Positions 11,830 through 39,469 of a stretch of 47,196 nucleotides of DNA are shown here, in pieces (the first letter of the stretch is position 1; every line of letters starts with the position of its first letter). Position numbers and translations under genes: made by a program. Under the pieces are notes generated by a model that was not told the DNA's origin, did no database searches, and saw only the letters and a list, made by a program, of their open reading frames with translations. The stretch is from Elsinoe ampelina (taxonomy: Eukaryota), in NCBI GenBank assembly GCA_010093995.1, contig ML992509.1, forward strand, positions 289,588-336,783. The letters are read 5' to 3'.

Positions 11830-14800
11830 ATGGCCATCTTCTCGCGTCGGCGGGGTTCGACCGGCCAGGTTTGTGATTGATCATCTGCTTTGTCACGGGA
11901 GACTGACGAGGATATACAGGTCCAAAGACCAAATGCGCCGGTCAGTTCAGCGGCTGCGGTCGCTGCGAATGCTGCTTTCCTCAACAAGTCTCCTTCCGCA
12001 GCTTCGCTCAGTTCTGCTGCTGCAGCTGCCGCTTTACGATCTCATACAACTTCGCCAGAACCAATCGCCAATCTCCAAACAAAGCGAATGGTGCGACGAC
12101 TCTCACAGTCCTCGAATGGTAGTGGCAGCGTAATAGTCGGTCCAGGCTTTGGTGGGGGACAGCGCCCAGTCGTGCGTAGGAGCAGCCAAGGTTCCATGAC
12201 GGACAGGACATTCAGATCTCCATCTCCGGGAGGCGTATCCCCGAGGAGAGCACCTGTTCCAGCCGCCGACGATGCTCCACCAGTACCTGTCTTGAGGCTC
12301 GATGGCAACAGCGGCGAACAACATTCAAGGCCAAGTTCGAGAGCATCTGCTACGGCACCGCGTCCGAAACCTGCGCCAGTCAAAGTATATCAGCCTACTG
12401 GACTCCCAAAGGTTCATGAGCTGGAACGTGAAGGTAGCAGGAACTCAATCAATTTCTCGAGACCAATCACATCCCCTACCGAGTCGACTCCTCCCGTCTC
12501 GCCGACTAGACCGAAAACTGCTGGCTCTTGGTTTGGCGCTCCTGCAGAGACAAAGGTCGCTGCACGACAGTCCGTTCACGATCGACCAAAGAGCGCAGTT
12601 GGTATTTCGGCAGGAAACAAATCAGGCATTGAAGCTGGACTCCAATCTGTTGCAAGAACACCGTCGAAGAAGAAGCAGAAAGCGGCCACCCAAGCTCAAG
12701 GCTCCAAACTTGCAGCGGGCACTTTGAGCAAGACGCCGCAAGGTACAGCAGTGTCTGCACTAAGTACGCAAGCGCGAGCACAAACGTCATCTCCTACACC
12801 TCTTCCGAAAAAACGACCAGCCACGAAAGCTGCTACAGCAGAAAGGACCGAGTCTGACACGGATGTGTCTGATGCCGATCGCAGGCGACAGACGAACTCA
12901 CCGTCAAGAACTCGCAAATCCACGCATACACTCAACAAGCAGCCTTCGGTAGTCATGGAAGAGCCGGACACTGAGCAGGACATCACAAAGCAGAAACGGG
13001 AGCAGGACAGTGCATATCCAAAGCTAGACCCGGCAAAACAGAGATCGCCACAAACACAGCACCTTGCGCCACGATCGAGAGAACCATCCTTGACACCTAG
13101 TACGTCTTCTGCCGGTTCTCCACATATGCGGTCACGTCCAGTGTCCCTCGAAGTGCCAGATCACTCGCACAAGTCTGCCCATTTCTCGAGCAACATAATC
13201 GACACTCCGTCAGGAGTTCGCCACAATCCTCCACCTCGATCCATTTCACCAGCGAAGTCTGCTCTGAAGCACTCGCCTTCTTCGTCTATCCGCACGACCT
13301 CACCGGTCGCAACATTCAGTCCGCCGACTAGACCCCCTGGTAGCGATACTTCTGACAGCATGTCGCTCACCTCCCAGGACGGCATCAAAACGACCAAGAG
13401 GAAGAAGGCAGCCCGAGTCAGCTTCGACGATAGTGCCATTGAACAAATCCATGAACGAGAGCCCAAGCCGCTTACCAACGGTGTCAAGAATGCTCGTCGC
13501 TCACTTTCTCCTGGTTTGTCTGACGAGGACATGGATGACGAGACAATGAAGCCAAGACCAGCCCTGCCATCATTTGGCAGCGTACGGAAAACTACGCCAA
13601 GGAGAAACCAGCCCGAGTCTCCAGAGAAGGTCACGGAGACTCTCAACGACACGACGAAACAACGGGACGCCCAGCAAGGTACATCCAGTGACCACGCAAT
13701 TGCGTCCATACTCAATGACGCCCACGGCAAGAAGACTTCGCATGACGAGAATGCTCCTCTCCCCCCTGAGGTCACATCTGTGGAAGGGACGGGCCATTTC
13801 TCTGATAGCGGAGAAAGTTCTGACGAGGAAGAATTAATCAAAGTTCACAAGCGTGACCCACAAGGGGTTCCCACCGCGGTTCAAGAGCCAGCGCAAAAGC
13901 GGGATGACTTGGTTGCACGAGACTCCGTCGCGCAACACATGGCAGTCCCTGACATACATGTTCTGCCCGCCACCCCTGGAATCGAGGACGTCCCGAATGA
14001 GTTGATGCAAGAGTCCGGTCCAAAGGCCGAAGACTCCTCCGTGAAGCCAGACGATATTGCGTCCAAGCCCACCAGAGTGTCTGTTCCAGGTGGCTGGGAC
14101 GAGGACGAGGAAGAGCCAGTTGCAGCAGGCATTTCCCAATTGGTCGTTACTCCGTCGACTTCTTCAAAGGAGCCGCAGGAAGCAGGGGAAGAGCAGGCCG
14201 AGTCTGATTCTGACGACAGTGCTGCCTTCAGCGACGCTGCAGAAGATCCTTCCGAGCTTGAGCCATTCGGCTATGCCTCGCTCGACGCCATCGTGGAAAG
14301 TCCTCTACCAAGTCGCGATAAGCAAAAGGAACAGGCTGCATCGCCGGCAATGTCAAGCCCATTATTCGACTCCTCACCGGAAGTGGGCACGCCTACCTCG
14401 GACAACAATGACTGGAGTCGTGCTAGCGCCTATTGGAGCAACCAAAAGCAGCAATTACAGCGCCGGGAGTCTGATCAACCGGCGACGGAAGACGAGACCT
14501 CGGCGCAGAGCTTGCCAGCCCCCAAACCGAAAGCAGTCAAGCCTCGAAATAAACCCGTTGTGGAGAACCCTTCAGGAGCAACGAGCTCGAGACAGCCGGC
14601 ACGCCAAATGCGCAGTTCGATGCGCGAGAAGCAACCACGAGTGGTCGAAGAACGGCCTTCCACGTTCCGCAAAACGATGAGAGGCCCCCCACCTGGACCA
14701 CCGCGACCCACCCCAGCTGAAAGGACTAAGCCAGTACCCACATCCGCCTTACAACAGAAGACCATGAGGCCAGCATCGGCTGGGGGCCTACCTTCAAAGC

Positions 14801-16233
14801 CAGCGCCTGTGACTGCGAAACCTTCAGCAAACGACAGCGATTCGGAGTCAAGCTTCCGGAAGAAGCCACGACGAGGCAGCGCAAGCGATACTGGGAGGTA
14901 TACGATGAAGCGCTCCATGCGATCTGCCTCTCTCGATAGAGACCAAGAAAGAAGACCTTCCTCCTCTCAGGGTGTTCCCGGACCCGGCAGATGGAGCTTG
15001 CGGTCCATGTCGCCTCCTGGTGATACCCCTCAATCCAATAGAAGCGCTTTCCGTACCTCGCTCAGAGGTACCTCAATTCCAGAAGGCCCAACCCTTAGAG
15101 GCAGCAACAGTATTGCTCAAGGGAAGCAGTCCAAGTCTGGTAAATTCAGCATGTCTGGCTTCTCTCGGGGTGCCAAACCACCTGCAGCAACGCCCGCTCC
15201 GGCTCAGACTGAGAAGGCGTTCAAGTCTCGCTTCGCTGACTCAGAATCTGAAGACGAGGCACCTGTCAGTGCTCCGACCCGAGGACCGAAACAAGGTTTC
15301 CGAAGTCGCTATGCAGACTCCGATGACGAAGATGATCAGCCGCGTCACATTGCCGCCGATCTCACGCCTGTCCGGGGTATTCCTCGACCGACAAACACAA
15401 TCCACGAGGATTCCACTGATCTCGATGACTCTTCTGATGACGAGTTCTCCCGCCGACGTCGAGCCAAGCGCGATTCTGCTCGCACTGTGGCAAAGCCGGC
15501 AGTACCAAGTCAAGCAGATATCGATAAGGCAATGGCAGCGGCTCGCCAGAACGTAGCAGCAATGACGGGCAACCAAGCTTTGCTCGAACCCTCTACCCCC
15601 AAGGGCAAGGTCCAGAAGCGTGTGACACTTCAAACGGACGCCCAATCGCCACCAGATGCTCCAGCGACACCAGCGATCACCACTGATGCAGCACCGATCG
15701 CACGGCGCAAAGGTCTACTTGGTTCCATTTTCAGCCGCCGAAACTCAAGTTCTTCGGTTACCTCGGTGTCAAAGCCCGCAGCGACGACTACAGACATGAC
15801 TCCGCCCGCTAGTCCAGGTAGCCCTCGCGGTAAGCTCCAGCGCCGTCACGCACCAAAGCTCAGTCGAAATGCTTCGGCGCAGAGCCAACTCAGCACGAAG
15901 AGCGACATGTCAACAGGTACCACAGCTACAGCCACCACAACCCCTGCTGCCCCGGCGACACCAGCCATGCCCGCTGTCAAGGAAGACGACGAGACCGAAC
16001 TCTGGCCACTAGAACCACCACGCATGCCAGCCGCGGAGGAAGAAAGAGAACGCCCCGCTAGCAGTGACGGCGTCGCGGAGAGCGGAAGAGCCAAATTATC
16101 CGAAGCCAGACCCAAACTTGAACGACGAAGCGTCAGCGGTGGCGAGAAGATCAAGCCCCAAGTGTACAGCGAGAAGACCGGGAAGAAGAAGCGATTCGGG
16201 AGGCTCAGGAGAGCATTTAGGTTGGATGATTAG
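11830..16233 (+). CDS. Large disordered Ser/Pro-rich protein, probable eisosome Seg1/Sle1-like
   Basis: Exon 11830-11868 MAIFSRRRGSTGQ, intron 11869-11919, long exon to 16233; SSAAAAAALR and GSMTDRTFR blocks and a basic amphipathic C-terminus KKKRFGRLRRAFRLDD. The gene is solid; the family call is by resemblance only. Confidence 0.6.
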
Positions 16234-17529: not shown

Positions 17530-18185
17530 ATCATTCTGCTCATCTATCTATACGCCCAGCTATGTCTCTCGATGCCTGGCGCCTCCTCTACGGCCTCGCC
17601 GTCGCCCTCATACTATGGCCACGTCTCTCGTTCTTGGGGCTCTGCGGCGTCTCCCGCGTCCTATTCGGGCTTCGCGCCGTACATTTGTGGAGCAGTCTCC
17701 GGTGAGCTGTATGAAGCTGAGTGAATTGGTCTGAGCTCTGGTATAAGCGGTTTTTAGGCCGGCAGGCATCGGAATGGCTATACAGTACGTGAAGAGATGA
17801 TGAAAGTTGGTCAGGTAGGTAAGCTCGTTACGCGCATTCTCATGATACAATTTAGGATGTCCTCACTTTCCTCCTTCACGTGTTATCGACCAATTTCCAC
17901 ACGACGTTCGTGAGGGTGACTTTCGCCCTCCGCAGCCTCATCGGTTGACCATATCAGCACGGGAGCATCCCGTCCCTGATTTGAATAAAACCATTCTTCC
18001 TCCCAGCCCAAACCTCTCTTCCTTTTTTTCTCCCATCGCGTTCTGTCTCCAAAGCTGTGAGTCCCGACCCAAAATCCGGTCACCCACCCACTTAACCCGA
18101 GCCGGTCAGCTGACTCTTACTGCAAGATCACAGTTTACCATTCACGACTTTACCGATTTACCAAAAATCAATCACCATTCTCACC

Positions 18186-19900
18186 ATGCCTTCTACCAAG
18201 GCCACCACCCTCGCCGCCCCATCGGGTAAGTCTTTTCTCACTTTTCTGTGATGCCTTCTCCTCTCGTGTCGTTATTTCTTCCTCTCCGCTTCAAAATTAT
18301 CTGCACGCAAGATGAGCCAAGTGCTCCTTTACCATCCTGTCGGTATGACAAATTTGAAGCTGACAACCTCGCAGGGCCTCGCTCCTCCCGCCTCCCCCGG
18401 CTTGTTGGGAAGGCACCTGCTGCCACAGGTGTCGCCCCAACCCGGGCGCCAAGTGCTGTCACCACCGGACAGCAAACCGCGACCGTCCTGGCTTCCGTAA
18501 GGAAGTCGCAACTCCCACGGCTCGCAGCCCCTCGTTCTGCGAAGCAGCAAGCTGGCTAGAAGCCGGCCCAAGCTTCAAAGGCATCCTCTGCCTCCGGCCC
18601 GAAGCCGGAAAAGAGAGCACGCTGGGTTGGACCCGGCAAATCCACCACCACCGCCCGTGCCGCGGTCAAATCGGCAAAACCTACCACTGGATCGCCCTCT
18701 GGTAGGATCACTCGGCCATCCGCCACCTTCCGCGCGCCCGCCGTCGCCACAACGGCTACTATCGCTTCTGCCGCCAAGGCAGTCACCCCTCGCGCCCGCG
18801 CCGTCGCTAAAACGGCCAACACCACCACCACTACCGCCCGTGCCCCGGTCAAATCGGCACGTCCTACCAGTGGCTCGTCCTCTGGTAGTTCCAACACACT
18901 CGTTGGCTCGACCTCTGCCAAAAAGGTCACTTTCGCCGACAAGCCGGCACTTCCTACCACTGGCAAGGCCTCTGGTAGGTCCATCCTTCGCGGTTCCACC
19001 GCCAACACCGCCCCTGCCGCGCCTAAGGCAGTTCCGACACCGCCGGCCGTCGTCCCATCGGCCTCAACTACCAGGACACGCAGTTCTGGTAGTTCCACCC
19101 TCACTTCGTCCGTGATCTCTGCCCCCAAGAGATCCAAGGGCTCATCCATCGCTCGTTTGGCTTCCAACTGGAAACCAGCCCCGGCTACCCCCGCCCGTCC
19201 GGTCCCTTTTTGGCCGACATACACCCCCGGCGCCTTTGTGCACGGGTTTCTTGCCGCGAACCAGCGGCGAACACAGCAGGCCCGCGCCCTTCGGGTTATC
19301 ACTCCTTCCTGGGACGGTCCAGTCCCTCAGGTCATCTACCCACTTCGTCTCGGCCATCTCTGGTCGCGCGATGATTCTGTCTTTAAAGGCGTTCCGATGA
19401 GTTTTGACAATGATTCGGACTCCGACACCGACTCGGTCACTGATGACTCGACACCTGCCACGTCTGTCGCCGACGTGGTAGAATCTGACACGGCGACTAC
19501 CACTCCTTCCTCCGGGGTCACTGCTGCCATGGCCGCCAGCTTGCTGGGCCTGGTAGTACCCTCGTCGCCAACTACCACCTCCTCGGTGGATTCTTCGGTC
19601 TCTTCAACGGCTTCCTCACCGTTCATCTCCCAGGTTTCTTCCCGGGTCCCTTCTTTCGAACTTCCTTCGGTCATTCCTACCACGTCTGTCGCCGACCTGG
19701 TAGGATCTCCTCCGGCGACTACCACTCCTTCTCTGGCATTCGCTGCTGACTTGGCTACTCGCTTGCTGAGTCTGGTCGAATCTTCGGCACCAACTACCAC
19801 TACTGTGGACTCTACCGTCTCTACCGCCGCCTCTTCGCCTTTCATCTCCCAGGCTAGCTCCCGGGTACCTTCTTTCGGCTCTTGGTCGTCTTTCGCCTGA
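18186..19900 (+). CDS. Orphan Ala/Thr/Ser/Pro/Lys-rich disordered protein interrupted by one in-frame TAG (18557-18559); 74 aa if the stop is used, ~521 aa if recoded
   Basis: Strong start context TCACCATG, exon 18186-18225, canonical intron 18226-18374 (GTAAGT..GCTGAC..CAG); the same frame stays open from 18560 to the TGA at 19898-19900. Could alternatively be a pseudogene. Confidence 0.6.
18681..19799. repeat. Array of CTACCA/TGGTAG inverted-repeat pairs with fixed 13- or 15-nt spacers inside the orphan CDS
   Basis: CTACCA-N13-TGGTAG at 18681, 18864, 18954, 19068; TGGTAG-N15-CTACCA at 19476, 19551, 19698 (TGGTCG variant at 19773); CTACCA-N15-TGGTAG at 19677. Confidence 0.85.
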
Positions 19901-20730
19901 TCCGACGTGTCTACACGCAGGATCTTCTGGAGGGCTGGCTCGTGGGACTTTCCGTTGCGTGCGAACGCAGGATTGCTTCACTTGCCTGGCTATCTGGGCT
20001 GATCCGTTGCGTTTGACACGGTTGGGTCTACTGGACTTCGACATCACGATCACTAACATCACGATCACTAACATCACCATCGCTTCAACATCGACATCCG
20101 CTGGACTCCTTGTTTAGACGCTGGACTGGCTGGACTCTAGCTGCCACTTGTCTCCGTCGCGTGCAAACGCGGGAGCTTGTCGGCGGCTTAGGACCTCTGG
20201 ATCCTGGCTGGCTTTACTCGGACCCTTCTGGACATCGGTACCGACACTCATTGGACAACACTTTTTTCTCTTCGACCTTCTGGTACTTGCTGGCTGGTCG
20301 GTCCTCTCGTTGCGGGAAGGGCAGTCGTTGGGGGACGGCTTGCTCCGAACGCTTTCCTCCTGGACGGAGCTGGAGCTGGAGTTCGCTGACTGGTCCATCA
20401 CTGGGGAGGGGATGGATGGACGTGGTGGAGGAGGAGGAGGATGATGGTCGCCGCCGGGCACGAACAGAGGCGTAACCCGGCACCCTTCTCTTTTGTTCTT
20501 CATTCCTGTCTCTTATCTCTTTTGTCTTTCTTATGTCTTGCTCTTCTGATCCTCTTGCATCTCTTTAGAAAAACACAAAAGGTTCTTGCTTACTTGAAGG
20601 GAGTTGGTGGCAGCCTTCTCTCCGATGGTGGCTTGGGCGCAAAAAAACTTGTAAAAGGCAACAAAAACAGCGAAGGCAAAAAATGCAGTCTCGGGGTATC
20701 CAGGCCCTCTTTCCTTTGTTGTCATCATGG

Positions 20731-20907
20731 GATAGATTTCTTAGGCGTGGTCGGGTGTTTGGGTATTGGCTTCTTTTCTTTTCCGATGATCCCTTCGGGG
20801 GGAGGGGTCCCTTCGGGGACCGCCTGACGATTGAGAGGCGCTTTCACGCAGCGTTGGGTGTCAGTACCTCACGCCGGCGAGCTGGGGGAAACCAGGACCT
20901 CTCTATC
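20731..20907 (+). ncRNA. Candidate structured RNA element (two cUUCGg hairpins, kink-turn, possible pseudoknot); family unknown
   Basis: Manual folding: CC-GAU-GA-UCCC-UUCG-GGGG-GA-GG K-turn (20783-20805); GGUCCC-UUCG-GGGACC (20806-20821); GAGAGG/CCUCUC (20833-38/20898-903); hairpin 20851-20874 whose loop GUCAG is complementary to CUGAC 20824-28. Confidence 0.45.
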
Positions 20908-21147
20908 TTCTTTGTCATTTTCCTTGTGCTCAGGAGCACCTCTCCTGTTTCCTATCTTCCTTCTCTTCATCATCATCACTGTCCTTGAGCACCATTTCCA
21001 TCCTCATCATCACTGTCCTTCCAGTCATTTTCTTCACCATCCTCATCTTCCTGTCATTTCATCTCTCTCTTTCTCATTGTCACTGTCCTTCCCGTCCATC
21101 TTCACTGCTGTCACCTTCTCGTTTGCCACTGACCTTAGCACCGACCT

Positions 21148-21305
21148 TCCCTTGCCACCGTCTTTATCTTGCCACCCACCTTCCCTTGCCACCGTCTTTA
21201 TCTTGCCACCCACCTTCGCTCGCCACCCACCTTCGCTCGCCACCCACCTTCGCTCGCCACCCACCTTCGCTCGCCACCCACCTTCGCTCGCCACCCACCT
21301 TCCCT
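21148..21305. repeat. Minisatellite: two 34-bp units followed by ~5-6 copies of 17-bp GCCACCCACCTTCGCTC
   Basis: Direct reading of tandem units. Confidence 0.9.
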
Positions 21306-21477
21306 TTGCCATTAATCCTTCCAGGTTTTCTTCACAACCCCACCTCCCATCGCTATCATCTTTTCCTTCCCACCATCCTTTCCTTCCCACCACTCTCTCT
21401 TTTGCGACCAGTCTCTCCTTTGCCACCGCTCCTTTCTCATCATTATCATCGCACATCTCACACATCTCCCACTCTCG

Positions 21478-21557
21478 CTGCACATACCTTCTTTCCTGTC
21501 ACTGCACATACCTTCTTTCCTGTCACTGCACATACCTTCTTTGCTGTCACTGCACAT
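21478..21557. repeat. Minisatellite: ~3 copies of 24-bp CTGCACATACCTTCTTTCCTGTCA
   Basis: Direct reading; a degenerate copy recurs near 21880-21910. Confidence 0.85.
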
Positions 21558-21580
21558 CCCTCACTGTCATTACATATCTC

Positions 21581-21860
21581 TCACCGTCACTACACATCTC
21601 CCACCGTCACTACACATCTCCCACCGTCACTACACATCTCCCACCGTCACTACACATCTCCCACCGTCACTACACATCTCNNNNNNNNNNNNNNNNNNNN
21701 NNNNNNNNNNNNNNNNNNNNNNNNNNNNNNNNNNNNNNNNNNNNNNNNNNNNNNNGTCACTACACATCTCCCACCGTCACTACACATCTCCCACCGTCAC
21801 TACACATCTCCCACCGTCACTACACATCTCCCACCGTCACTACACATCTCTCACTGTCAC
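21581..21860. repeat. Minisatellite: 20-bp CCACCGTCACTACACATCTC array spanning a 75-N assembly gap (21681-21755)
   Basis: About 5 perfect or near-perfect units on each side of the N run; true copy number unknown. Confidence 0.95.
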
Positions 21861-22925
21861 TGTAAATCCTTATTGTCACTGCACGTACCTTCTTTCCTGT
21901 CACTGCACATCCCTTCCTGTCACTGCACGTCCCTTCCTGTCACTACACATCTTCCCCCGTCACTGCACATCCCCCACAGTCATTACCCCCCCCCCATAGG
22001 GCGATAATCGACTTTCTCGTAAGTATCATCCATGATAGTAAGTAGCTCACCGGATTTCTTTCTCGATCTGCATAAGCTTCGTTGTGCGCTGTTCTGCTGG
22101 CGCAGCCTCGCAGCATGCAACCAAATGACTTGCCTGCAAACGTGTGTTCCCAATGCTGGCTGCCTTTCTCCCTTTCTCCGTTTTCATTCCCAAATTGTCC
22201 TGTTGCCGCGAATCTGGTCCACATCCAGTGCGGCTTATGCGTGTCCAGGCACCTACCGAATCCTCTCCATTGCAATTGAAGAGAGTCACATCGCTGAAGA
22301 CGATGCTAACACTATCGCGATCGAAGCTCATCTGCCCGCCGATAAGGAGGAGACGTATGTCGAAGCTGTTCCCGAGTGTATGCCATTGTTGTTGCTGACA
22401 TAGCTGCAGGTGTATGCAGAAACTCCAGTAGGCTAACCTCTACACTCAGCGTGGTTATCTCTGCTGACATTTGCTAGTATCTGTGTGCATATTGATCCCG
22501 CGTATGATGGAGCTGAGATCTGCAAATTTGATGTAGAAGTATGAGTTTGGATTTTCGCGATCGGATGGGACAATTCGAGATATAATAATGACCTGAATCA
22601 GCACAAATGTTCAACGGTCCCACCGGTGACGCGAACGGTGAACCCCTTGACGGCTCATTGCTTCCTTGGCTCACTGCTACCCTGGCTAACTAGCGCCCTG
22701 GCTCAAACCCCCCGATCCGACAGCGGAGGCGGGGGGCGGGGGTGAACTCCGATTTGCTGCGACGTCTGTTGAGTCTCCACTGCTATATCTCGTCTACTAA
22801 TCCCGACATTGACCTTTGACATCTCGCAGCCTTCGCACGTTCTCCGCCAAATCATTGCGGATGGCAGCGTGATGGTGCCATGAGATCGTTGGCGAGCTGT
22901 CCTGGCTCGCTGATGCAGGACCAGC

Positions 22926-33380: not shown

Positions 33381-34504
33381 CTACAGCAGAGGATTCGATC
33401 TGTACTCGGGTACATCTCCATTCGTCTTGCCCTTCTTGGCCTCGGTCTCTTTCTCGAGGTTTGACTCTTCGGGTCCATCTTCCCGTTCGACGAGATACTT
33501 CTCCGCTTCGAGAGCAGCTATACATCCGGAACCTGTTGTTGTTAGCCTGTGGGCGCTGATAGGGTATACCTGCTACACTTACCTGCGCTGGTGATAGCCT
33601 GCCGGTACTTCTTGTCTTGCACATCTCCCGCGGCAAAGACACCTTCAATGTTTGTGTGCGTATTGCCCGGATTTGTGATGAGGTAGCCTTCGTCGTCCAT
33701 GTCCAGTTGTCCCTTGAACAAATGCGTCGCGGGCTCATGTCCAACAGCGTAGAACAGTCCGTTCGCCGGAATCTCTTCCTCCTCGCCCGTCTTGCTGTTC
33801 TTGATCTTCAGCCCGGTCATCAGTCCCCGCTCCTTCTCCTCTCCTGTGATCTGTGTTGCTTGTGTGTTGTACCTGATCTCGACCTTCGGGTGGCTCATCA
33901 ACCTCTTAGCATTGGCTTTGCTCGCCCTGAGTACGTCCCTCCTGACCAGTACGGTGACCTTCTTCGCCTTCTTCGTCAAGTAGATCGCCTCCTCCACGGC
34001 ACTATCTCCACCTCCGATGACGACAAGCGGCTTCTCCCTAAAAATTGGCAGACTCCCGTCACAGACCGCGCACGCACTAACACCATTGCCCCAGAACTTC
34101 TCCTCCCCATCCAGTCCCAATCTCCTTGCCTTCGCTCCAGTAGCAATGATGATCGCATCCGCCGTGTGCTCCTCTTCCTCCAAAGTCTCCTCGTCTCCCA
34201 TCGGATGCAGCCAATACTTGAACGGCCGGCTCTTCAGGTCCACCTTACCCACAGTCTGCGACACGATCTCCGTCCCACACGCCTCCGACTGCGCCCTCAT
34301 CTGGTCCATAAGCTCTGCGCCCTGGATCTTCTTGAAACCAGGGTAGTTCTCCACCTCGTCTGTCGTGGTGAGCTGTCCACCAGCAGCGATGCCGAGAGCG
34401 AGGAAACCTTCATAAAGCACAGGCGAGAGGTCTGCGCGGGCGGCGTAGATGGCTGCCGTGTGCCCTGCTGGGCCAGAGCCAATGATGACAACCTTGGAGT
34501 GCAT
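33381..34504 (-). CDS. TRR1: Thioredoxin reductase (low-MW type); possible GUG-initiated N-terminal extension from 34663
   Basis: MHSKVVIIGSGPAGHTAA, redox CAVC, GGGDSAVEEA, GDVQDKKYRQAITSAG, intron ~33582-33533, last exon SGCIAALEAEKYL..SNPLL*. Confidence 0.97.
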
Positions 34505-34912
34505 CTTGCGGGTCGAGAGGGAGGCGGTGGTGGGCGGGAGGAAGTAGGATGCGAATGGGTGCGGGGCGGGGTTGGGTTTGTAGAAAGCTGCTGCTGCGAA
34601 GGGGAGGGCGAAGGAGGATTTGAGTGCTGTAGTGCCGAAGCGGCGGAAGGGTGAGGAGAACACTTTGACGGTGGTGGGGATAAGGGTGGGAGGAATTGGT
34701 ATGGAAGTGTAGAGGTGGGGATAAGTTTCTTATGAATCACGAGAGAAATAACTCGAATTAGAGTTGCTGGTTGCTTGCGCGATGTGCTGATGACATAATA
34801 ATCTTCGGATTCTAGAATTGTACGGCTAGATTAAGCTTTGTACAAAGTGGGGCATTGCGGTTCCTGAGATTTTATGCGCCGAGGCTATGCTTGATCTTGT
34901 GCATGCTACTTA

Positions 34913-37878
34913 GGGGCCGTCTCCTTCGATCTTGGTGTTTTGGTGGAGCTGGTCTTTTTTGGCGTAATTAGCGTAAAAGGTGTAAAATTGGCGGCGGCCG
35001 AGGCCGAGATACAGGGCTAAGACACTTTTATAGCTTAGGAAGGCAGTAAGAAGTCGCGCGAGTGTCACGTTTAGTGTTAACTTAGCCGTAAGAGACGTAA
35101 GGCTATAGTACTCTATACTAACAAGATTAGCACACTAAATTAAGCAGTTATAGATAACTAATCGCGTGTACTCCTTATAAGTCTCCTCTCTAGTACTTTA
35201 CTTACGTAGTTAAATAACATATATAAGCCTCTAGGGAATACTAGTAACTATCGGCTTAATACTTAAGGCTTTAGCCTTAACTAGATTAACTAGAGTATTA
35301 AGGTTAACGAGGACTATAAGCGATACATGTAGTGTATAGTAGTCTCCTTCTACTATCTCTATAAGCGCTTAACAATAATAACTCTAGTGCTTAATAATAG
35401 CTATAAGTTACTTACTTACTATAAGCTCTTTATTACTCTCTATATCCTCGCCACTAGCGCTAGCTATCGGTATGTCGCTGCTAAGGTTAGTGTAGTTATC
35501 TAAATAGTTAGCCGATTCTTCTATTAAGCCTTATAAAGTCTCTTTACTTTATATAATAAATATATAGTGCCAATTATAACAGTCTAAGTGCTACTAGATA
35601 TCTAGATAAATTGCAAGTTTTAGCCTTACTTTAAAGGCTATATTAGTGCTCTTAATAGCACTTATATCTACGCTTATGTTCTTAGCGAGTAATTAGCTTA
35701 GAGAGATTAAAAAGGTAGCCTGTTATAGAATGTATTAGTAGTTATAAACTATAAGATAAAGTTTACCTACCTATTACTAGAATAGAAGAGGTCTATATAT
35801 AACACTTAAGTACTTACTAATACTTACACTAAGGGCTTCTCTACTCTAGAAGGCGCTTATTATCTCGTAGATACTAGATATAGTAATTAGATTAATATCT
35901 TAGTACTCTATTAAGGTGTAAGGTACTACCTCTAAGAATATAAGGCTACTAACTAATAGCCTTAAAGTCTAAAGGAGCTCTTTAATTTATACTACTTATA
36001 ACTCTATAATATTATTAAAAGAAGCTTTAGATTACTTAAGAGATAGTAGTAGATATTAGATAAGCGATTTAAGTTCCCTTCGATACTTACGTAGGTGCGA
36101 ATAGTATACTATCTAGCTATACTTTATAACCTTTTACTAAGTATCTAGATAGCTGTCTATCTCGAGGAGAAGAAGGAGAAGAAGAAGAAGAAGAAGAAGA
36201 AGAAGAAGGTCTCTAAGCCTATTAGCTATCTAATAGGTAAAGGGGAGCAAAATATAGAGGATATATATATAGTTAAATATCGTAATAAGATAGCTAAGGA
36301 TATATAGCGTAATTACTAGCTTAAGCTATAGCAGCGCTAAGGTCGATAGAAGGGAGTAGTAAATAATATAGTATAATTAGATAATAGTTTCTAGTTATTT
36401 AATAGTTGTTTAGCAGCTTCTATATTTAAATTAGATATATAATAAAGAGTGTAAAGAATTAAAGAGGTTGTAAAAAACACCTCGCTACCTATCCTAAAAG
36501 GAATATCCTAAAAGGGTAATAGTTATATAAGAAATTAACTTTAAGCTATAAAGGCTCTTTCTCTCTCTTCTCTAATTATACCTCTTTATCCTTCTCGTCT
36601 TTAACAAGCATTATAAGCAGTAAGCTAGTCTGTTCGCTTATAAGCTTATATCTTATACCTTTATCTAACTTAAGCTAGTACTCTACTACCTCTTTTAAGG
36701 CTAGTAAAGCCTTTACCTTTGTCGCTAATACAAGATAAGTAAACTCCTTAGTAAACTTAGTAGTTGCTTAAGCGACTACTAAAGGCCTTTTAGTAATCTT
36801 ATTTAACCTCTTTATTACATTAAGGATAGCTTATATTATCTAGTTTACCTTATTTATCTTTTGCCTCTTATTTAGAATAGTTAAGCTTACTAGTATACCT
36901 ACGTATAAGAAGGTAATAGAGGCTACTAGCGTAAAGAGCGGCTGTATAAGGTAAGGGCTTAGAGATTAACTAAATTTTATAGGCCTATCTAACTCCTCTA
37001 CTATCTATAGTACCTCTCTCTCTTCTTTCTTCTTCTCTATACTAATCTTAAGCATATTAGAAGAAGTAAGAGCGTACTTACTAGAGGCTATAACGTTACT
37101 CTAAAGCTCGTTACTAAGATTAAGCTACTTAAACTTATAGTATCTAAATTTTTAAGCGCTAGCGTAAGAGGTAAAATACTTCTCTATTATATAAGGCTTA
37201 GTATATAGTATACTATTACTGTCTATTGTTTAACTAGACTAGTAGTAAAGTATCTTATAATTCGACTAATTCCCCTTTAAAGCTCTATACTTATTACGAA
37301 CCTTCTCTTCTATTATATCGCTAGGTTCTATATGCCTTATTACTACTATAATAATTAGTATAGCCTACTAAAAGGTAATAGCCTTAAAGCTAGATTAAGC
37401 TTGTTTACTAGTAGCCTTCTCTCTTACTAAGAAACTAAGGAACGTAGATACTATATTATTAGTCTAGCTACTATTAAATCGCTGCGGCGCTAGAGTTAAT
37501 AACGCTATAGAGGTTGCTTAGAAGGCTAGCTAGCTAGCTGGCGGCGCTATTAAGGTCATAATTAAGGTAGTTAAAGGGGTAGTAGAGGTGGTAGATTAAG
37601 TGCTTTAAGAGGTAGTATAAACACGAGGTTTACTTATATACGTTTACTAAGACTAGTAAAAAGCTAGTTATCTATATATACAATTACGAGAGTAAGTACA
37701 AAGAACTAGCCTTAATAAGCTAACCTTACTCTATTAGGCCATCGAGTTAGTCTAGCTAGTCAAAAGCGCTACTAAAAGACCGACTATTAGTTATCGAAGA
37801 ATACGCAAATCGGTCATCTATTACACCTTCCTAATCGAGCACAAAAAACCGGTCAAATTCGACGAAGGATACGGGCCC
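34913..37878 (+). mobile_element. PIF/Harbinger DNA transposon, full-length but inactivated by RIP
   Basis: TIRs GGGGCCGTCTCCTTCG (34913-28) and CGAAGGATACGGGCCC (37863-78), 14/16 identical as inverted repeats; TTA duplicated on both sides (34910-12, 37879-81); interior extremely AT/TpA-rich with no ORF >=60 aa in the track. Confidence 0.9.
35200..36340 (+). pseudogene. RIP-mutated Harbinger DDE transposase (DDE_Tnp_4 type); boundaries approximate
   Basis: Reverting C>T/G>A changes gives IGALDGTHI (35642-35668), SQNVL..FTYLLPGWEGSAHD, YYLADAGY, PYRGVRYHL and KELFNLRH..ERSFGLLKRRW (from ~35972). Confidence 0.88.
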
Positions 37879-37951
37879 TTAGTAATCCAACGGAAGGACT
37901 CTAGAAACGTCATATCCAAGGTGGATTCTAACATCTCTCGATCGGAACATG

Positions 37952-39469
37952 TCATTCGTCTTGCTCGGCTTCGTTCTCGCGCTTCCTTAATCTCTCCACG
38001 CCGTGCAGTAGACCTTCTAAATCGGCCTGCCCGGGCCCCGGAACATTGACGTTGTTGAGCTCATCATACTTGGTCGAAGCATCCGTATCAGGTCTCAGTG
38101 ACCACTGCACGCCATCTTTGACAGCTCGCCACTGCTCCAACCTCTTCCGATGACTGCTCACGATAAAACCTCCGGACCCCAGATCTACGATGTCGAAGAT
38201 GTGTCCCTGCTCTGATGTGTCGACAACCGAGATTTTGCTCTCTGGGGATTCCAGATCGCTTGCATCGATGTAAGCAAGGGCATCCACACCCTCGCATGCT
38301 ATAAGGATGAGGGACGAGTCGCCAATTGACAACATCCAGATGTTGCTTACCGCGATCGGCTTCTTGTCGTTTTCATGACCGCCCCGGACTAGTTGCAAGT
38401 CTTTGCGTGCTAGGAGTTGTCCAGTCGACCAGTCCCAGACACCGAGCCAGTTGTCACCGCCACCACTGACTAGCAATCTGCTACCCGGTATTCTTCGAAT
38501 CCGATGCACAAATTCTGTGTGTCCAAGGCAGTAGCTTTCCGTGATATGCGTCTGAGGGATGCCGCGCGAGATTCTGATATGCTCGTCCCTGTCGCAGGTA
38601 ACAATGTATCGCCGAGACTTGTCAGCGGCTTCGACCGTCACCAGTTGCATGTCCGTAAGCATCGATACATGTCCCAAAAGAAGCTTGTGTTCGAATGCCG
38701 ATGGCTCTCTCGTGGACTTGATGAGTTTCCCCTTTGCCTTCAGTTGTTCCTGTAGGGCCTTCAGATTCCGCTTCGTATGCACAGTCAACTCAGTCGCAGT
38801 CGGCTCATAGACCCTTTGACCACTCAAAGCTTGAGCTTGCGCTGTCTCTGCGCCATTAGTGCCGCCGTTAGTATCATTCGCCGGCGGATGTAGAGGCAAG
38901 GAGTAGACATCTCCGAATTTATCTCCGCAGATAATAGTCTCGCTGTCGTCGGTGATCTGAATTGCACACGGCCGCTTCGGCATGCATCTGAGAACCAGGT
39001 CAGATTGCCCAATAGTCCTGCTAATCGCACATACCGTTGACTGAGCTCCATAAGCACTCCCTCGACCAGAGAAAAGACTCTGATGCATTTGTCCACTCCG
39101 GTCACAGCCACAATGTGCTGCTGGTCAGGCGCCGGGGTCAGGAGCGTAACATCATGGTGGGTAGTGCTCGTCTGTTCCAGCTTCCGCTTCTTGTTCTGCG
39201 GCTCGGTGCCATTGCTTGTTGACTGTGTCAGTCAGATTTGATGACCCCATGACCGTAGGACCGTCCGAGGGAAAAGCTCGAGATGGAAGACAGTAGCCTA
39301 CCTGATCACTCTCTGAAGACGCTGGCCAACGCGAAATCACATGGTGAGCATCATTTGCGTTCCCGAGGCGAGCTGATATCAGATTCGGTCCGCAAGCTGC
39401 CACAAGAATCTCATCTTCGGCTGCAGGCGACACCTTACACAGAGCCTGATACGGATACATCGTATCCAT
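37952..39469 (-). CDS. TRM82: tRNA (guanine-N7)-methyltransferase WD40 non-catalytic subunit
   Basis: Three exons; RCMPKRPCAI, CGDKFGDVY, LLLGHVSMLTD, TCDRDEHIRISR, YCLGHTEFV, SGGGD. Confidence 0.93.

What the first reader, a model, noticed from the sequence alone, without database searches (positions are those of the whole stretch)
18551..18567. In-frame UAG placed at the A34 position of a tRNA anticodon-arm mimic: candidate A-to-I stop-codon repair
Seen: the only stop interrupting a ~521-codon spliced ORF lies in GCTGG-CTAGAAG-CCGGC, a 5-bp stem (one U.G) with a 7-nt loop C-U-A-G-A-A-G. The loop maps onto C32-U33-A34-G35-A36-A37 of a tRNA-Ser(AGA) anticodon loop, with A18558 as A34. Editing gives UIG, read as Trp, yielding GWKPA; the same protein has a genomically encoded NWKPA ~200 codons later, so Trp is the expected residue. 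Established: the Tad2/Tad3 deaminase converts tRNA A34 to I, and sexual-stage A-to-I mRNA editing that repairs premature UAG codons is described in Sordariomycetes such as Fusarium and Neurospora. Inference: this gene may be switched on by editing, which would be notable if the host lies outside the lineages known to edit. The competing explanation is a TGG>TAG RIP-type mutation (CpA>TpA on the minus strand).
Basis: partly seen in the sequence, partly recalled or inferred. Interest (0 to 1): 0.85.

Follow-up and report, generated by a model that had tools for sequence, protein, structure and literature searches.

The report
Conserved in-frame stop in hairpin loop
A gene of an Elsinoe-like plant fungus carries a stop codon, shared with a sister species, in the loop of a strong RNA hairpin, and the long reading frame behind it still evolves like a protein, which makes it a testable candidate for stop-codon repair by RNA editing in a fungal class where such editing has never been shown.

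Summary
TAG 18557-18559 is the only stop in a 521-codon spliced frame (ATG 18186, intron 18226-18374). It lies in hairpin 18551-18567, the second most stable of 1,509 17-nt windows in exon 2.

It is not a sequencing error or a private mutation. An RNA contig with intron 1 spliced carries the TAG. The Elsinoe batatas model ends at the same codon.

The 446 codons behind the stop look translated: best codon-usage frame of six, 12 of 20 listed substitutions synonymous, and relatives' length differences of 0, +3, +6 and +12.

The flanks C-U-A-G-A-A-G meet 5 of 6 Fusarium editing preferences. Only 13 of 965 TAGs in the window combine such flanks with a loop closed by 5 or more pairs.

Against editing: the host is a Dothideomycete, a class with no reported mRNA editing. 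The one RNA contig (depth about 3) reads A. The free RNA prefers a 3-5-nt loop, not the tRNA-like 7-nt loop.

Verdict: a well-founded but unproven candidate for restorative A-to-I editing (about 0.4). Rivals are a decaying pseudogene, translational readthrough, separate initiation and a rare intron.

The parts
18186..18225 (+). Exon 1: ATG plus 13 codons and one base
   Evidence: Sequence. RNA contig of run X3 covers 18145-18224 and joins to exon 2.
18226..18374 (+). Intron 1, 149 nt, GTAAGT...CTGAC...CAG
   Evidence: Joint 'skips 149, GT..AG (cut +1)' in RNA run X3 and absent from DNA run X1. Sequence.
18375..18556 (+). Exon 2 before the stop (codons 14-74)
   Evidence: 58 of these 61 residues are identical in the E. 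batatas model P0123.
18557..18559 (+). In-frame TAG (codon 75); A18558 is the candidate edited base
   Evidence: Present in RNA contig 18491-18711 with 0 differences and in the DNA contig. A stop stands at the same codon in E. batatas.
18551..18567 (+). Hairpin holding the TAG: 5 to 7 bp stem, 7 to 3 nt loop
18541..18576 (+). Outer 5-bp helix (18541-18545 with 18572-18576) stacked under the hairpin
   Evidence: 41-nt fold -17.1 kcal/mol, z -2.76; 61-nt fold.
18560..19900 (+). 446-codon frame behind the stop, ending at TGA 19898-19900; no ATG for about 280 codons
   Evidence: Codon usage best of six frames. Open in 9 of 5,000 Markov simulations. 12 synonymous against 8 non-synonymous listed differences. 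Length differences in the relatives are multiples of 3. RNA contigs cover 18491-18711 and 18816-19714.
18593..18637 (+). Two further very stable hairpins (18593-18609 and 18621-18637) just behind the stop
   Evidence: ranks 4 and 2-3 of 1,509 windows. Whether they belong to the mechanism is not known.

Best explanation
This is a lineage-specific gene of an Elsinoe-like Dothideomycete that encodes a mostly disordered Ser/Ala/Thr/Pro-rich protein. It carries a conserved premature UAG at codon 75. By default the mRNA yields a 74-residue product. I propose that the tRNA deaminase Tad2/Tad3 deaminates A18558, which sits behind a U in the loop of a very stable hairpin. UAG then becomes UIG, is read as Trp, and the full 521-codon frame is translated. 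This would happen only in a fraction of transcripts or under particular conditions, such as sexual development or stress, as with the Fusarium genes PUK1, AMD1 and CHE1. Shown here: the stop is in the spliced mRNA, it is conserved in a second species, the frame behind it is under coding constraint, and the cis-features match published editing preferences. Inferred: the editing itself, the enzyme, the condition, and Trp as the decoded residue.
For: (1) The stop is real and in mature mRNA. In RNA run X3 intron 1 is spliced out, bins 18268-18334 have depth 0, and a contig covers 18491-18711 with 0 differences. DNA run X1 agrees. (2) The stop is conserved. E. batatas KVT40_008824 (P0123) has 102 aa like the window's own NCBI model P0002 and ends at the same residue. 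(3) The relatives laid belong to that lineage: 6 of 6 residue changes made by their listed shared differences equal the E. batatas residues. (4) The frame behind the stop is constrained. It is the best of six frames by codon usage and open in 9 of 5,000 simulations. Of 20 listed differences, 11 are at third positions and 12 are synonymous, against 29% expected (p 0.003; p 0.057 if 40% is expected). The relatives' pieces differ in length by 0, +3, +6 and +12, and the listed indels inside the frame are 3, 3, 1+2, 6, 6, 3 and 69 bases, while the two outside are single bases. Of the listed differences, 10 synonymous and 7 non-synonymous lie before the first in-frame ATG, so translation must come from upstream. 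(5) Cis-features. The bases at -2 to +4 (C, U, A, G, A, A, G) are preferred at 5 of 6 positions by the F. graminearum rules (PMC9600606, section 6 read). A18558 is in a hairpin loop in the same +/-30-nt fold those papers use. 13 of 965 TAGs (1.3%) in the window combine preferred -2/+3/+4 with a loop closed by 5 or more pairs, and this one has the lowest fold energy of the 13 (-18.1) and the longest stem but one (7 bp; one site in the AT-rich block has 8). (6) Precedent. CHE1 has a conserved premature stop in a hairpin loop, is annotated as a truncated protein, and is edited at 0.68-5.1% in hyphae without sexual cofactors (PMC11169179, passages read). 50 of 71 Fusarium genes of this type encode disordered proteins and 43 encode hypothetical proteins (PMC10776026, passages read).
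Against: No A>G was seen. The only RNA contig over the site reads A, although a consensus at depth about 3 cannot show a minority and the growth stage is unknown. The host is a Dothideomycete. Editing is established only in Sordariomycetes and Pyronema, and was not found in Aspergillus nidulans or Botrytis cinerea (PMC11156358, passages). The Ame1-Tad3 interaction that confers mRNA editing is reported to have arisen in Sordariomycetes (PMC11087585, passages). The free RNA prefers a 3-5-nt loop, not the 7-nt tRNA-like loop, and +2 is a depleted base. About a third of all TAGs (304 of 965) have their A in some predicted hairpin loop, so loop position alone means little. Hairpins are unusually dense in 18551-18637 whatever the cause. 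The constraint test uses only the 20 differences that one search listed; 123 rows were not shown. The nucleotides of the stop and hairpin in relatives were not seen. The protein has no homologue outside this clade: 1 hit among 1.84 billion representatives, and it is the window's own short model. Recalled, not from a call: eukaryotic Tad2/Tad3 is said to need the whole tRNA shape, and nothing tRNA-like surrounds the hairpin.
Confidence: 0.4

Rival explanations
1. A true nonsense mutation (TGG>TAG or similar, possibly RIP-type) was fixed in the common ancestor of the window species and E. batatas. The gene now makes only the 74-residue product or nothing useful, and the frame behind the stop is a relic that has not yet decayed.
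For: The one RNA contig over the site reads the stop as it stands. Both annotated genomes call only the short product. The gene is an orphan without any homologue elsewhere, and such genes are easily lost. The host class is not known to edit (PMC11156358, passages). The relatives are only about 7% diverged (125 differences in 1,893 bases), so a relic frame could stay open. RIP exists in this genome: block 35-38 kb has indices 2.04 and 0.28.
Against: If the stop is ancestral to both lineages, everything since should be neutral. Yet the listed indels in the frame and the net length differences are multiples of 3, while those outside are single bases. Synonymous changes exceed expectation (12 of 20 against 29%). 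The frame is still the best of six by codon usage in all five 300-nt segments. The gene's RIP indices (0.87 and 1.01) are far from those of the RIP-like block. The fit to the editing context would be a 1-4% coincidence.
Confidence: 0.25
2. Translational readthrough: a fraction of ribosomes decode UAG with a near-cognate tRNA and continue, giving a low level of the long protein. The dense hairpins behind the stop might help.
For: It explains a conserved stop with a constrained frame behind it and needs no machinery unknown in this class. Two of the four most stable hairpins of exon 2 lie 34-78 nt behind the stop.
Against: The context GGC-UAG-AAG matches neither readthrough motif that I recall (UGA-CUA in fungi, UAG-CAR-YYA in viruses; recalled, from no call). 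The stop lies inside its hairpin, which the ribosome must melt on arrival, and the next hairpin starts 34 nt downstream rather than about 8 nt (recalled spacing). Rfam found no element; the best match had E 0.65. The fit to the editing motif would be coincidence.
Confidence: 0.15
3. The stop ends a genuine 74-codon reading frame, and the frame behind it is translated separately, from an internal transcript or from a non-AUG start or by reinitiation.
For: The frame behind the stop is constrained. The RNA contigs differ in depth (about 3 before 18711, about 10 after 18816), though the tool warns that contig depth cannot rank parts of a gene.
Against: There is no in-frame ATG for about 280 codons behind the stop, yet 10 synonymous against 7 non-synonymous listed differences lie in that stretch. 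I saw no in-frame CTG, GTG or ACG in the first codons behind the stop (reading). Reinitiation after 74 codons is unusual (general knowledge).
Confidence: 0.08
4. A rarely used 63-nt in-frame intron (18497 GTAAGG ... CTAG 18559) removes the stop, and the RNA seen is the intron-retaining form.
For: GTAAGG is a plausible donor. The length of 63 nt is typical of fungal introns and is a multiple of 3. The intron would end exactly with the TAG.
Against: The RNA contig 18491-18711 keeps these 63 nt, while intron 1 is fully removed in the same run. None of 135 in-frame GT/GC..AG candidates spanning the stop, this one included, has a YTRAY branch motif 6-50 nt before its end, whereas intron 1 has CTGAC. 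Contigs can hide a rare isoform.
Confidence: 0.05

Closest known systems
CHE1 (FG3G21220) of Fusarium graminearum: conserved premature UAG corrected by A-to-I editing in hyphae (PMC11169179, passages read)
   Same: In-frame UAG in the middle of the frame, in a predicted hairpin loop with U at -1. It is conserved in closely related species. Automated annotation ends the protein at the stop. There is no conserved Met behind the stop, and the N-terminal part is disordered.
   Different: CHE1 editing was measured (0.68%, rising to 5.12% with H2O2), whereas here none was seen. CHE1 has zinc fingers behind the stop, whereas here there is no known domain. The host here is a Dothideomycete, not a Sordariomycete.
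PUK1, AMD1 and the 71 premature-stop pseudogenes of F. graminearum with sexual-stage restorative editing (PMC4817773 and PMC10776026, passages read)
   Same: UAG to UGG at a premature stop, a preference for stable hairpin loops, many hypothetical and disordered proteins, and some transcripts also present in hyphae.
   Different: Those depend on the Tad2/Tad3 short isoforms and Ame1, whose interaction is reported to be a Sordariomycete innovation (PMC11087585). All their stops arose within Sordariomycetes. The machinery could not be looked for here because no genome is held.
TadA editing of tRNA-Arg-like mRNA hairpins in bacteria (known to me only as cited in PMC11169179, and from the search-listing abstract of PMC12255301)
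   Same: The idea that a housekeeping tRNA A34 deaminase edits mRNA hairpins that copy its anticodon loop, without extra cofactors.
   Different: That enzyme is bacterial and accepts a bare stem-loop. Here the 7-nt loop form is disfavoured by 4.5 kcal/mol.
Programmed stop-codon readthrough giving extended isoforms in fungi (cited in PMC4817773 as Stiebler et al. 2014; details recalled)
   Same: A conserved stop with a conserved frame behind it.
   Different: The known fungal cases use UGA followed by CUA and add short C-terminal signals (recalled). Here UAG-AAG stands 74 codons into a 521-codon frame.

Membership tests
Fungal premature-stop gene with restorative A-to-I editing (PUK1/AMD1/CHE1 type) | In-frame UAG present in the spliced mRNA and not removed by an intron | tested here: met
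   intron 1 is spliced, and contig 18491-18711 carries the TAG with 0 differences; no credible intron spans it.
Fungal premature-stop gene with restorative A-to-I editing (PUK1/AMD1/CHE1 type) | Frame behind the stop is maintained as coding | tested here: met
   codon usage, open in 9 of 5,000 simulations; 12 of 20 synonymous; length differences 0, +3, +6, +12. This rests on a listed subset of the differences.
Fungal premature-stop gene with restorative A-to-I editing (PUK1/AMD1/CHE1 type) | Stop conserved at the same codon in related species | tested here: met
   the E. batatas model ends at the same residue. This is one species only, and the stop's nucleotides were not seen.
Fungal premature-stop gene with restorative A-to-I editing (PUK1/AMD1/CHE1 type) | U at -1 and preferred bases at -2 and +1 to +4 | tested here: met
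   Sequence compared with PMC9600606 section 6: 5 of 6 positions are preferred, and +2 (A) is depleted.
Fungal premature-stop gene with restorative A-to-I editing (PUK1/AMD1/CHE1 type) | Edited A in the loop of a stable hairpin (+/-30-nt fold) | tested here: met
   (unpaired, first loop base, -18.1 kcal/mol).
Fungal premature-stop gene with restorative A-to-I editing (PUK1/AMD1/CHE1 type) | A>G in RNA but not in DNA of the same strain | tested here: inconclusive
   the single RNA contig reads A. Consensus contigs at depth about 3 drop minor variants. The growth stage is unknown, and no other RNA holder was listed.
Fungal premature-stop gene with restorative A-to-I editing (PUK1/AMD1/CHE1 type) | Host has the mRNA-editing set-up (short Tad2/Tad3 isoforms, Ame1 able to bind Tad3) | not testable with these tools
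Fungal premature-stop gene with restorative A-to-I editing (PUK1/AMD1/CHE1 type) | Host belongs to a lineage with demonstrated mRNA editing | tested here: not met
   Searches place the host in Dothideomycetes (Myriangiales-like). Paper searches (4 papers, all on Fusarium; 1 review) found no report for this class.
tRNA anticodon-arm mimic (substrate of the A34 deaminase) | 5-bp stem closing a 7-nt loop with U33-A34 | tested here: inconclusive
   The sequence allows it, but that form is -5.3 against -9.8 kcal/mol for the 7-bp/3-nt form, and the C-G pair that shortens the loop has probability 1.0.
tRNA anticodon-arm mimic (substrate of the A34 deaminase) | Rest of a tRNA-like body around the arm | tested here: not met
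   ARAGORN found 0 tRNA genes in the window, and Rfam gave no tRNA match in 18000-20000.
Programmed translational readthrough site | Known leaky context behind the stop | tested here: not met
   The sequence is UAG-AAG-CCG. The motifs compared are recalled and come from no call.
RIP-mutated duplicated DNA | High TpA/ApT, low (CpA+TpG)/(ApC+GpT) and low GC | tested here: not met
   the gene scores 0.87 / 1.01 at GC 0.595, against 2.04 / 0.28 at GC 0.333 in block 35000-38000. A single G>A of RIP type cannot be excluded.

The most novel reading that the evidence does not exclude
mRNA A-to-I editing operates in Dothideomycetes. The housekeeping Tad2/Tad3 deaminase, alone or with a cofactor that evolved independently of the Sordariomycete Ame1 system, opens a conserved premature UAG in an anticodon-loop-like hairpin. 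The fungus thereby switches between a 74-residue and a 521-codon product. That would be a further lineage, and probably a further origin, of restorative editing in fungi.
Probability: 0.35. Interest if true: 0.8.

Novelty: new variant of a known kind. Interest (0 to 1): 0.6.

Why it matters
Reviews of fungal RNA editing state that it is not known which classes of filamentous ascomycetes edit mRNA. They also note that fungi forming pseudothecia have not been examined (PMC11156358 and PMC7306014, passages read). The current model ties the capacity to a Sordariomycete innovation (PMC11087585). This site offers a single, precisely located test in a Dothideomycete. One amplicon across 18558, sequenced deeply from cDNA and DNA, would either extend restorative editing to a new class or show another way to live with a conserved premature stop. 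It also shows that both annotated genomes carry a wrong model here: an intronless 102-aa frame that starts inside the intron.

Tried and rejected
**Searches that found nothing or failed**
- Whole genome: none is held, so Tad2, Tad3, Ame1 and other premature-stop genes could not be sought.
- RNA runs: one search listed no holder on record as RNA. X3 proved to be RNA through its spliced contig.
- Base at 18558 in the relatives' runs: not among the 40 rows shown (123 not shown), so it is left open.
- Homologue searches: one search timed out. One search (residues 255-350) gave 0 hits. One search (exhaustive) gave 1 hit, the window's own short model. Pfam gave 0 families.
- Metagenome scans: 599 pattern matches, none confirmed; 0 matches.
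- Earlier notes of this scan: one search failed; searches returned nothing.
The Atlas look-up of the neighbouring thioredoxin reductase gave only phylum-level taxa.

**Explanations rejected**
- Sequencing or assembly error: DNA and RNA runs of two studies and a second species agree.
- UAG reassignment or a general suppressor: no other long frame in the window is interrupted by a TAG in this way. Of the 15 listed sites, the four other TAGs are three preceded by G (GTAG, donor-like) and the opposite-strand reading of this same palindromic CTAG. The rest are TGA or TAA.
- Selenocysteine or pyrrolysine: not known in fungi (general knowledge).
- A gene on the opposite strand: all three minus frames score below the plus frame, and the intron is GT..AG on the plus strand.
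- A known RNA family or tRNA.
Full report
**1. What is there**

GCTGG (18551-18555) and CCGGC (18563-18567) flank CTAGAAG, and TAG 18557-18559 separates two stretches of one frame (18230..18559 and 18560..19900).

Public runs gave the gene model. Run X3 is from the same organism label as the likely source run, but from another sample and study. One of its contigs joins 18225 to 18375, skipping 149 nt with GT..AG ends. DNA run X1 is colinear there. So X3 is RNA, and the intron is 18226-18374 (GTAAGT donor, CTGAC branch motif, CAG acceptor).

With ATG 18186 the frame holds 74 codons, the TAG, then 446 codons to TGA 19898-19900, 521 codons in all. The first in-frame ATG behind the stop comes only after about 280 codons.

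**2. The stop is real, is in the mRNA, and is shared with another species**

A second X3 contig covers 18491-18711 without a single difference. The intron-1 bins 18268-18334 have depth 0 in that run. The spliced transcript therefore carries an unedited UAG, at least as the consensus at depth about 3.

An exhaustive phmmer search used exon 2 read with TAG as W (P0001) against 1.84 billion representatives. It found one protein, P0002. P0002 is this genome's own NCBI model, an intronless 102-aa frame that starts at an ATG inside intron 1 and ends at the TAG.

A word-index search with P0002 found one relative: 'hypothetical protein KVT40_008824 [Elsinoe batatas]'. It also has 102 aa, is 89% identical, and ends at the same residue...AG then stop. 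The stop therefore predates the split of the two species.

**3. Host**

The neighbouring thioredoxin reductase frame (33542-34729, minus strand) has its best named hits in Dothideomycetes. Examples are 93% to 'Dothideomycetidae sp. 11243' and 88% to 'Dothideomycetes sp. NU459', with two lichen Arthoniomycete genomes further down. I saw no Sordariomycete among the 120 rows.

Together with the E. batatas orthologue, the window is from an Elsinoe-like fungus (Myriangiales, Dothideomycetes).

**4. Is the frame behind the stop still a gene?**

Four lines say yes.

- **Codon usage.** A model trained on three or four other long frames of the window scores frame 0 best in each of five 300-nt segments. 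Frame 0 is also best of all six frames: +0.041 against -0.078 to -0.565.
- **Open frame.** Only 9 of 5,000 first-order Markov simulations of this C/T-rich stretch stay open. Frames 1 and 2 have 6 and 15 stops.
- **Substitutions.** One search listed 20 differences inside the frame that both relatives' runs (X4, X5) share. Eleven are at third positions (p 0.038). Twelve are synonymous, where random change would give 29% (p 0.003; p 0.057 if mutation bias raises the expectation to 40%). Seventeen of the 20 (10 synonymous) lie before the first in-frame ATG.
- **Indels.**
  - The relatives' pieces differ from the window in length by 0, +3, +6 and +12 bases.
  - The listed indels inside the frame are 3, 3, 1+2 (adjacent), 6, 6 and 3 bases, plus a 65-base back-step with 4 extra letters (69).
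  - One adjacent pair, 1+1, is incomplete in the listing, and 10 indel rows were not shown.
  - The two indels listed upstream of the ATG are single bases.

The relatives belong to the E. batatas lineage. All 6 residue changes produced by their listed shared differences in 18251-18374 are the E. batatas residues. Both lineages have the stop, yet the frame behind it has kept evolving like coding sequence.

Limits of this evidence:
- One search showed only 40 of 163 difference rows.
- I could not see the relatives' bases at 18557-18559 or in the hairpin.
- I could not check their frames for stops.

**5. The hairpin**

- The 17-mer folds at -9.8 kcal/mol (z -3.96, 0 of 200 shuffles as stable), and an outer 5-bp helix stacks below it.
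- It ranks second of 1,509 17-nt windows in exon 2. None of 4,336 windows in the 1,450-codon control frame reaches -9.8.
C18556-G18562 pairs with probability 1.0 and U18557-A18561 with 0.81, leaving a 3- or 5-nt loop. The 7-nt-loop form costs 4.5 kcal/mol.
- A18558 is unpaired in every version. It is the first loop base in the +/-30-nt fold that the Fusarium studies use.

So the anticodon-arm likeness is partial. U-A-G-A-A copies positions 33-37 of a tRNA with anticodon AGA (numbering recalled), but positions 32 and 38 would form a Watson-Crick pair. No tRNA-like body surrounds the hairpin.

**6. Fit to known editing rules**

Section 6 of PMC9600606 gives these preferences for F. graminearum:

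| Position | Preferred | Depleted | This site |
|---|---|---|---|
| -2 | C/U | A/G | C |
| -1 | U (strongly) | the other three | U |
| +1 | A/G | C/U | G |
| +2 | G | C/A | A (depleted) |
| +3 | A/G | C/U | A |
| +4 | A/G | C/U | G |

The site meets 5 of 6. That paper notes that the class with only +2 depleted holds many edited sites. It and PMC4817773 (passages) report that about 62% of sites lie in hairpin loops and that more stable hairpins are edited more.

As an empirical control I examined all 965 foldable TAGs of the window:
- 304 have their A in some hairpin loop.
- 109 have preferred -2, +3 and +4.
- 38 have both.
- 13 (1.3%) have both with a stem of 5 or more pairs. This site has the lowest fold energy of the 13 (-18.1) and a 7-bp stem; one site in the AT-rich block has 8 bp.

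Loop position alone is common, but the combination is rare. One caution: three of the four most stable hairpins of exon 2 lie within 18551-18637, so hairpins are locally dense for whatever reason.

**7. Rivals**

- **Rare intron.** I noticed a possible 63-nt in-frame intron (GTAAGG 18497 to CTAG 18559). The RNA contig keeps it while intron 1 is fully removed. Neither it nor any other of 135 in-frame GT/GC..AG candidates has a YTRAY branch motif.
- **RIP.** The gene's indices are 0.87 and 1.01 at GC 0.595, against 2.04 and 0.28 in the AT-rich block at 35-38 kb. The stop is shared between species, so a recent RIP hit is unlikely. An old single G>A cannot be excluded.
- **Readthrough.** It would explain the conservation, but the context UAG-AAG does not match the motifs I recall, and the stop sits inside the hairpin.
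- **Separate initiation.** It lacks a start codon.
- **Decaying relic.** This is the main rival. It fits the annotation, the orphan status and the unedited contig, but not the in-frame indels and the synonymous excess.

**8. Comparison with what is known**

The closest case is CHE1 of F. graminearum (PMC11169179, passages). It has a premature UAG in a hairpin loop, conserved among close species, and is annotated as a truncated protein. It is edited at only 0.68% in hyphae and 5.12% after H2O2, apparently by the housekeeping deaminase without sexual cofactors.

The larger set of 71 Fusarium premature-stop genes is enriched for disordered and hypothetical proteins (PMC10776026, passages), like this one (Ser 80, Ala 66, Thr 61 and Pro 46 of 446 residues).

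What differs is the host. Editing has been shown in Sordariomycetes and in Pyronema. It was not found in A. nidulans or B. cinerea (PMC11156358, passages). Pseudothecium formers were named as untested (PMC7306014, passages). The enabling Ame1-Tad3 contact is assigned to Sordariomycetes (PMC11087585, passages).

Two full-text searches found no report of mRNA editing in the class. The terms 'A-to-I' + 'Dothideomycetes' + 'RNA editing' gave 4 papers, all on Fusarium. The terms 'pseudothecia' + 'A-to-I' gave 1 review. I did not open any supplementary files.

**9. Verdict**

I put restorative A-to-I editing at about 0.4. The rivals are a relic behind a true stop (0.25), readthrough (0.15), separate initiation (0.08) and a rare intron (0.05). 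If editing is shown, it extends a known mechanism to a new fungal class and questions its single-lineage origin. If not, the locus still needs an explanation for a conserved stop in front of a constrained frame.

Noticed in passing
window 18621-18637: A near-twin of the stop hairpin lies 70 nt downstream. 13 of its 17 bases are identical, it has the same outer stem GCTGG/CCGGC, and the C-G pair next to the loop is replaced by G-C. It is equally stable (-9.8 kcal/mol). It holds a genomically encoded TGG, but in the stem and in another codon register. By my estimate, 13 of 17 identity between two 17-mers of this gene is expected by chance many times over.
   Followed up: partly
window 19637-19920: The last 87 or so codons of the gene and 20 bases beyond have at least one close copy elsewhere in the genome. 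Extra DNA and RNA contigs with 1-7 differences and loose ends at both borders were laid here. One is a 2,529-nt RNA contig at depth 70. No annotated protein matches this part.
   Followed up: no
window 18642-18705 / 18825-18888 and 19454-19658 / 19676-19877: Internal direct repeats of the gene, 64 nt at 87.5% and about 206 nt at 77%. They correspond to repeated peptide units of the disordered protein.
   Followed up: partly
window 35000-38000: AT-rich block (GC 0.33) with strong RIP-type dinucleotide indices: TpA/ApT 2.04 and (CpA+TpG)/(ApC+GpT) 0.28. The genome has, or had, active RIP.
   Followed up: partly
window 20828-22007, N run 21681-21755: Long low-complexity frames with tandem peptide-like units such as HISHRHYTSPTVTTHLPPSL. 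They are interrupted by a 75-base run of N, probably an assembly gap in a tandem repeat.
   Followed up: no
window 18251-18556: The public annotation of this genome and that of E. batatas both call an intronless 102-aa protein that starts inside the RNA-supported intron. Its first 42 residues are intron sequence.
   Followed up: yes
window 11881-16233: A 1,450-codon open frame on the plus strand has no Pfam family. I used it only as a control.
   Followed up: no
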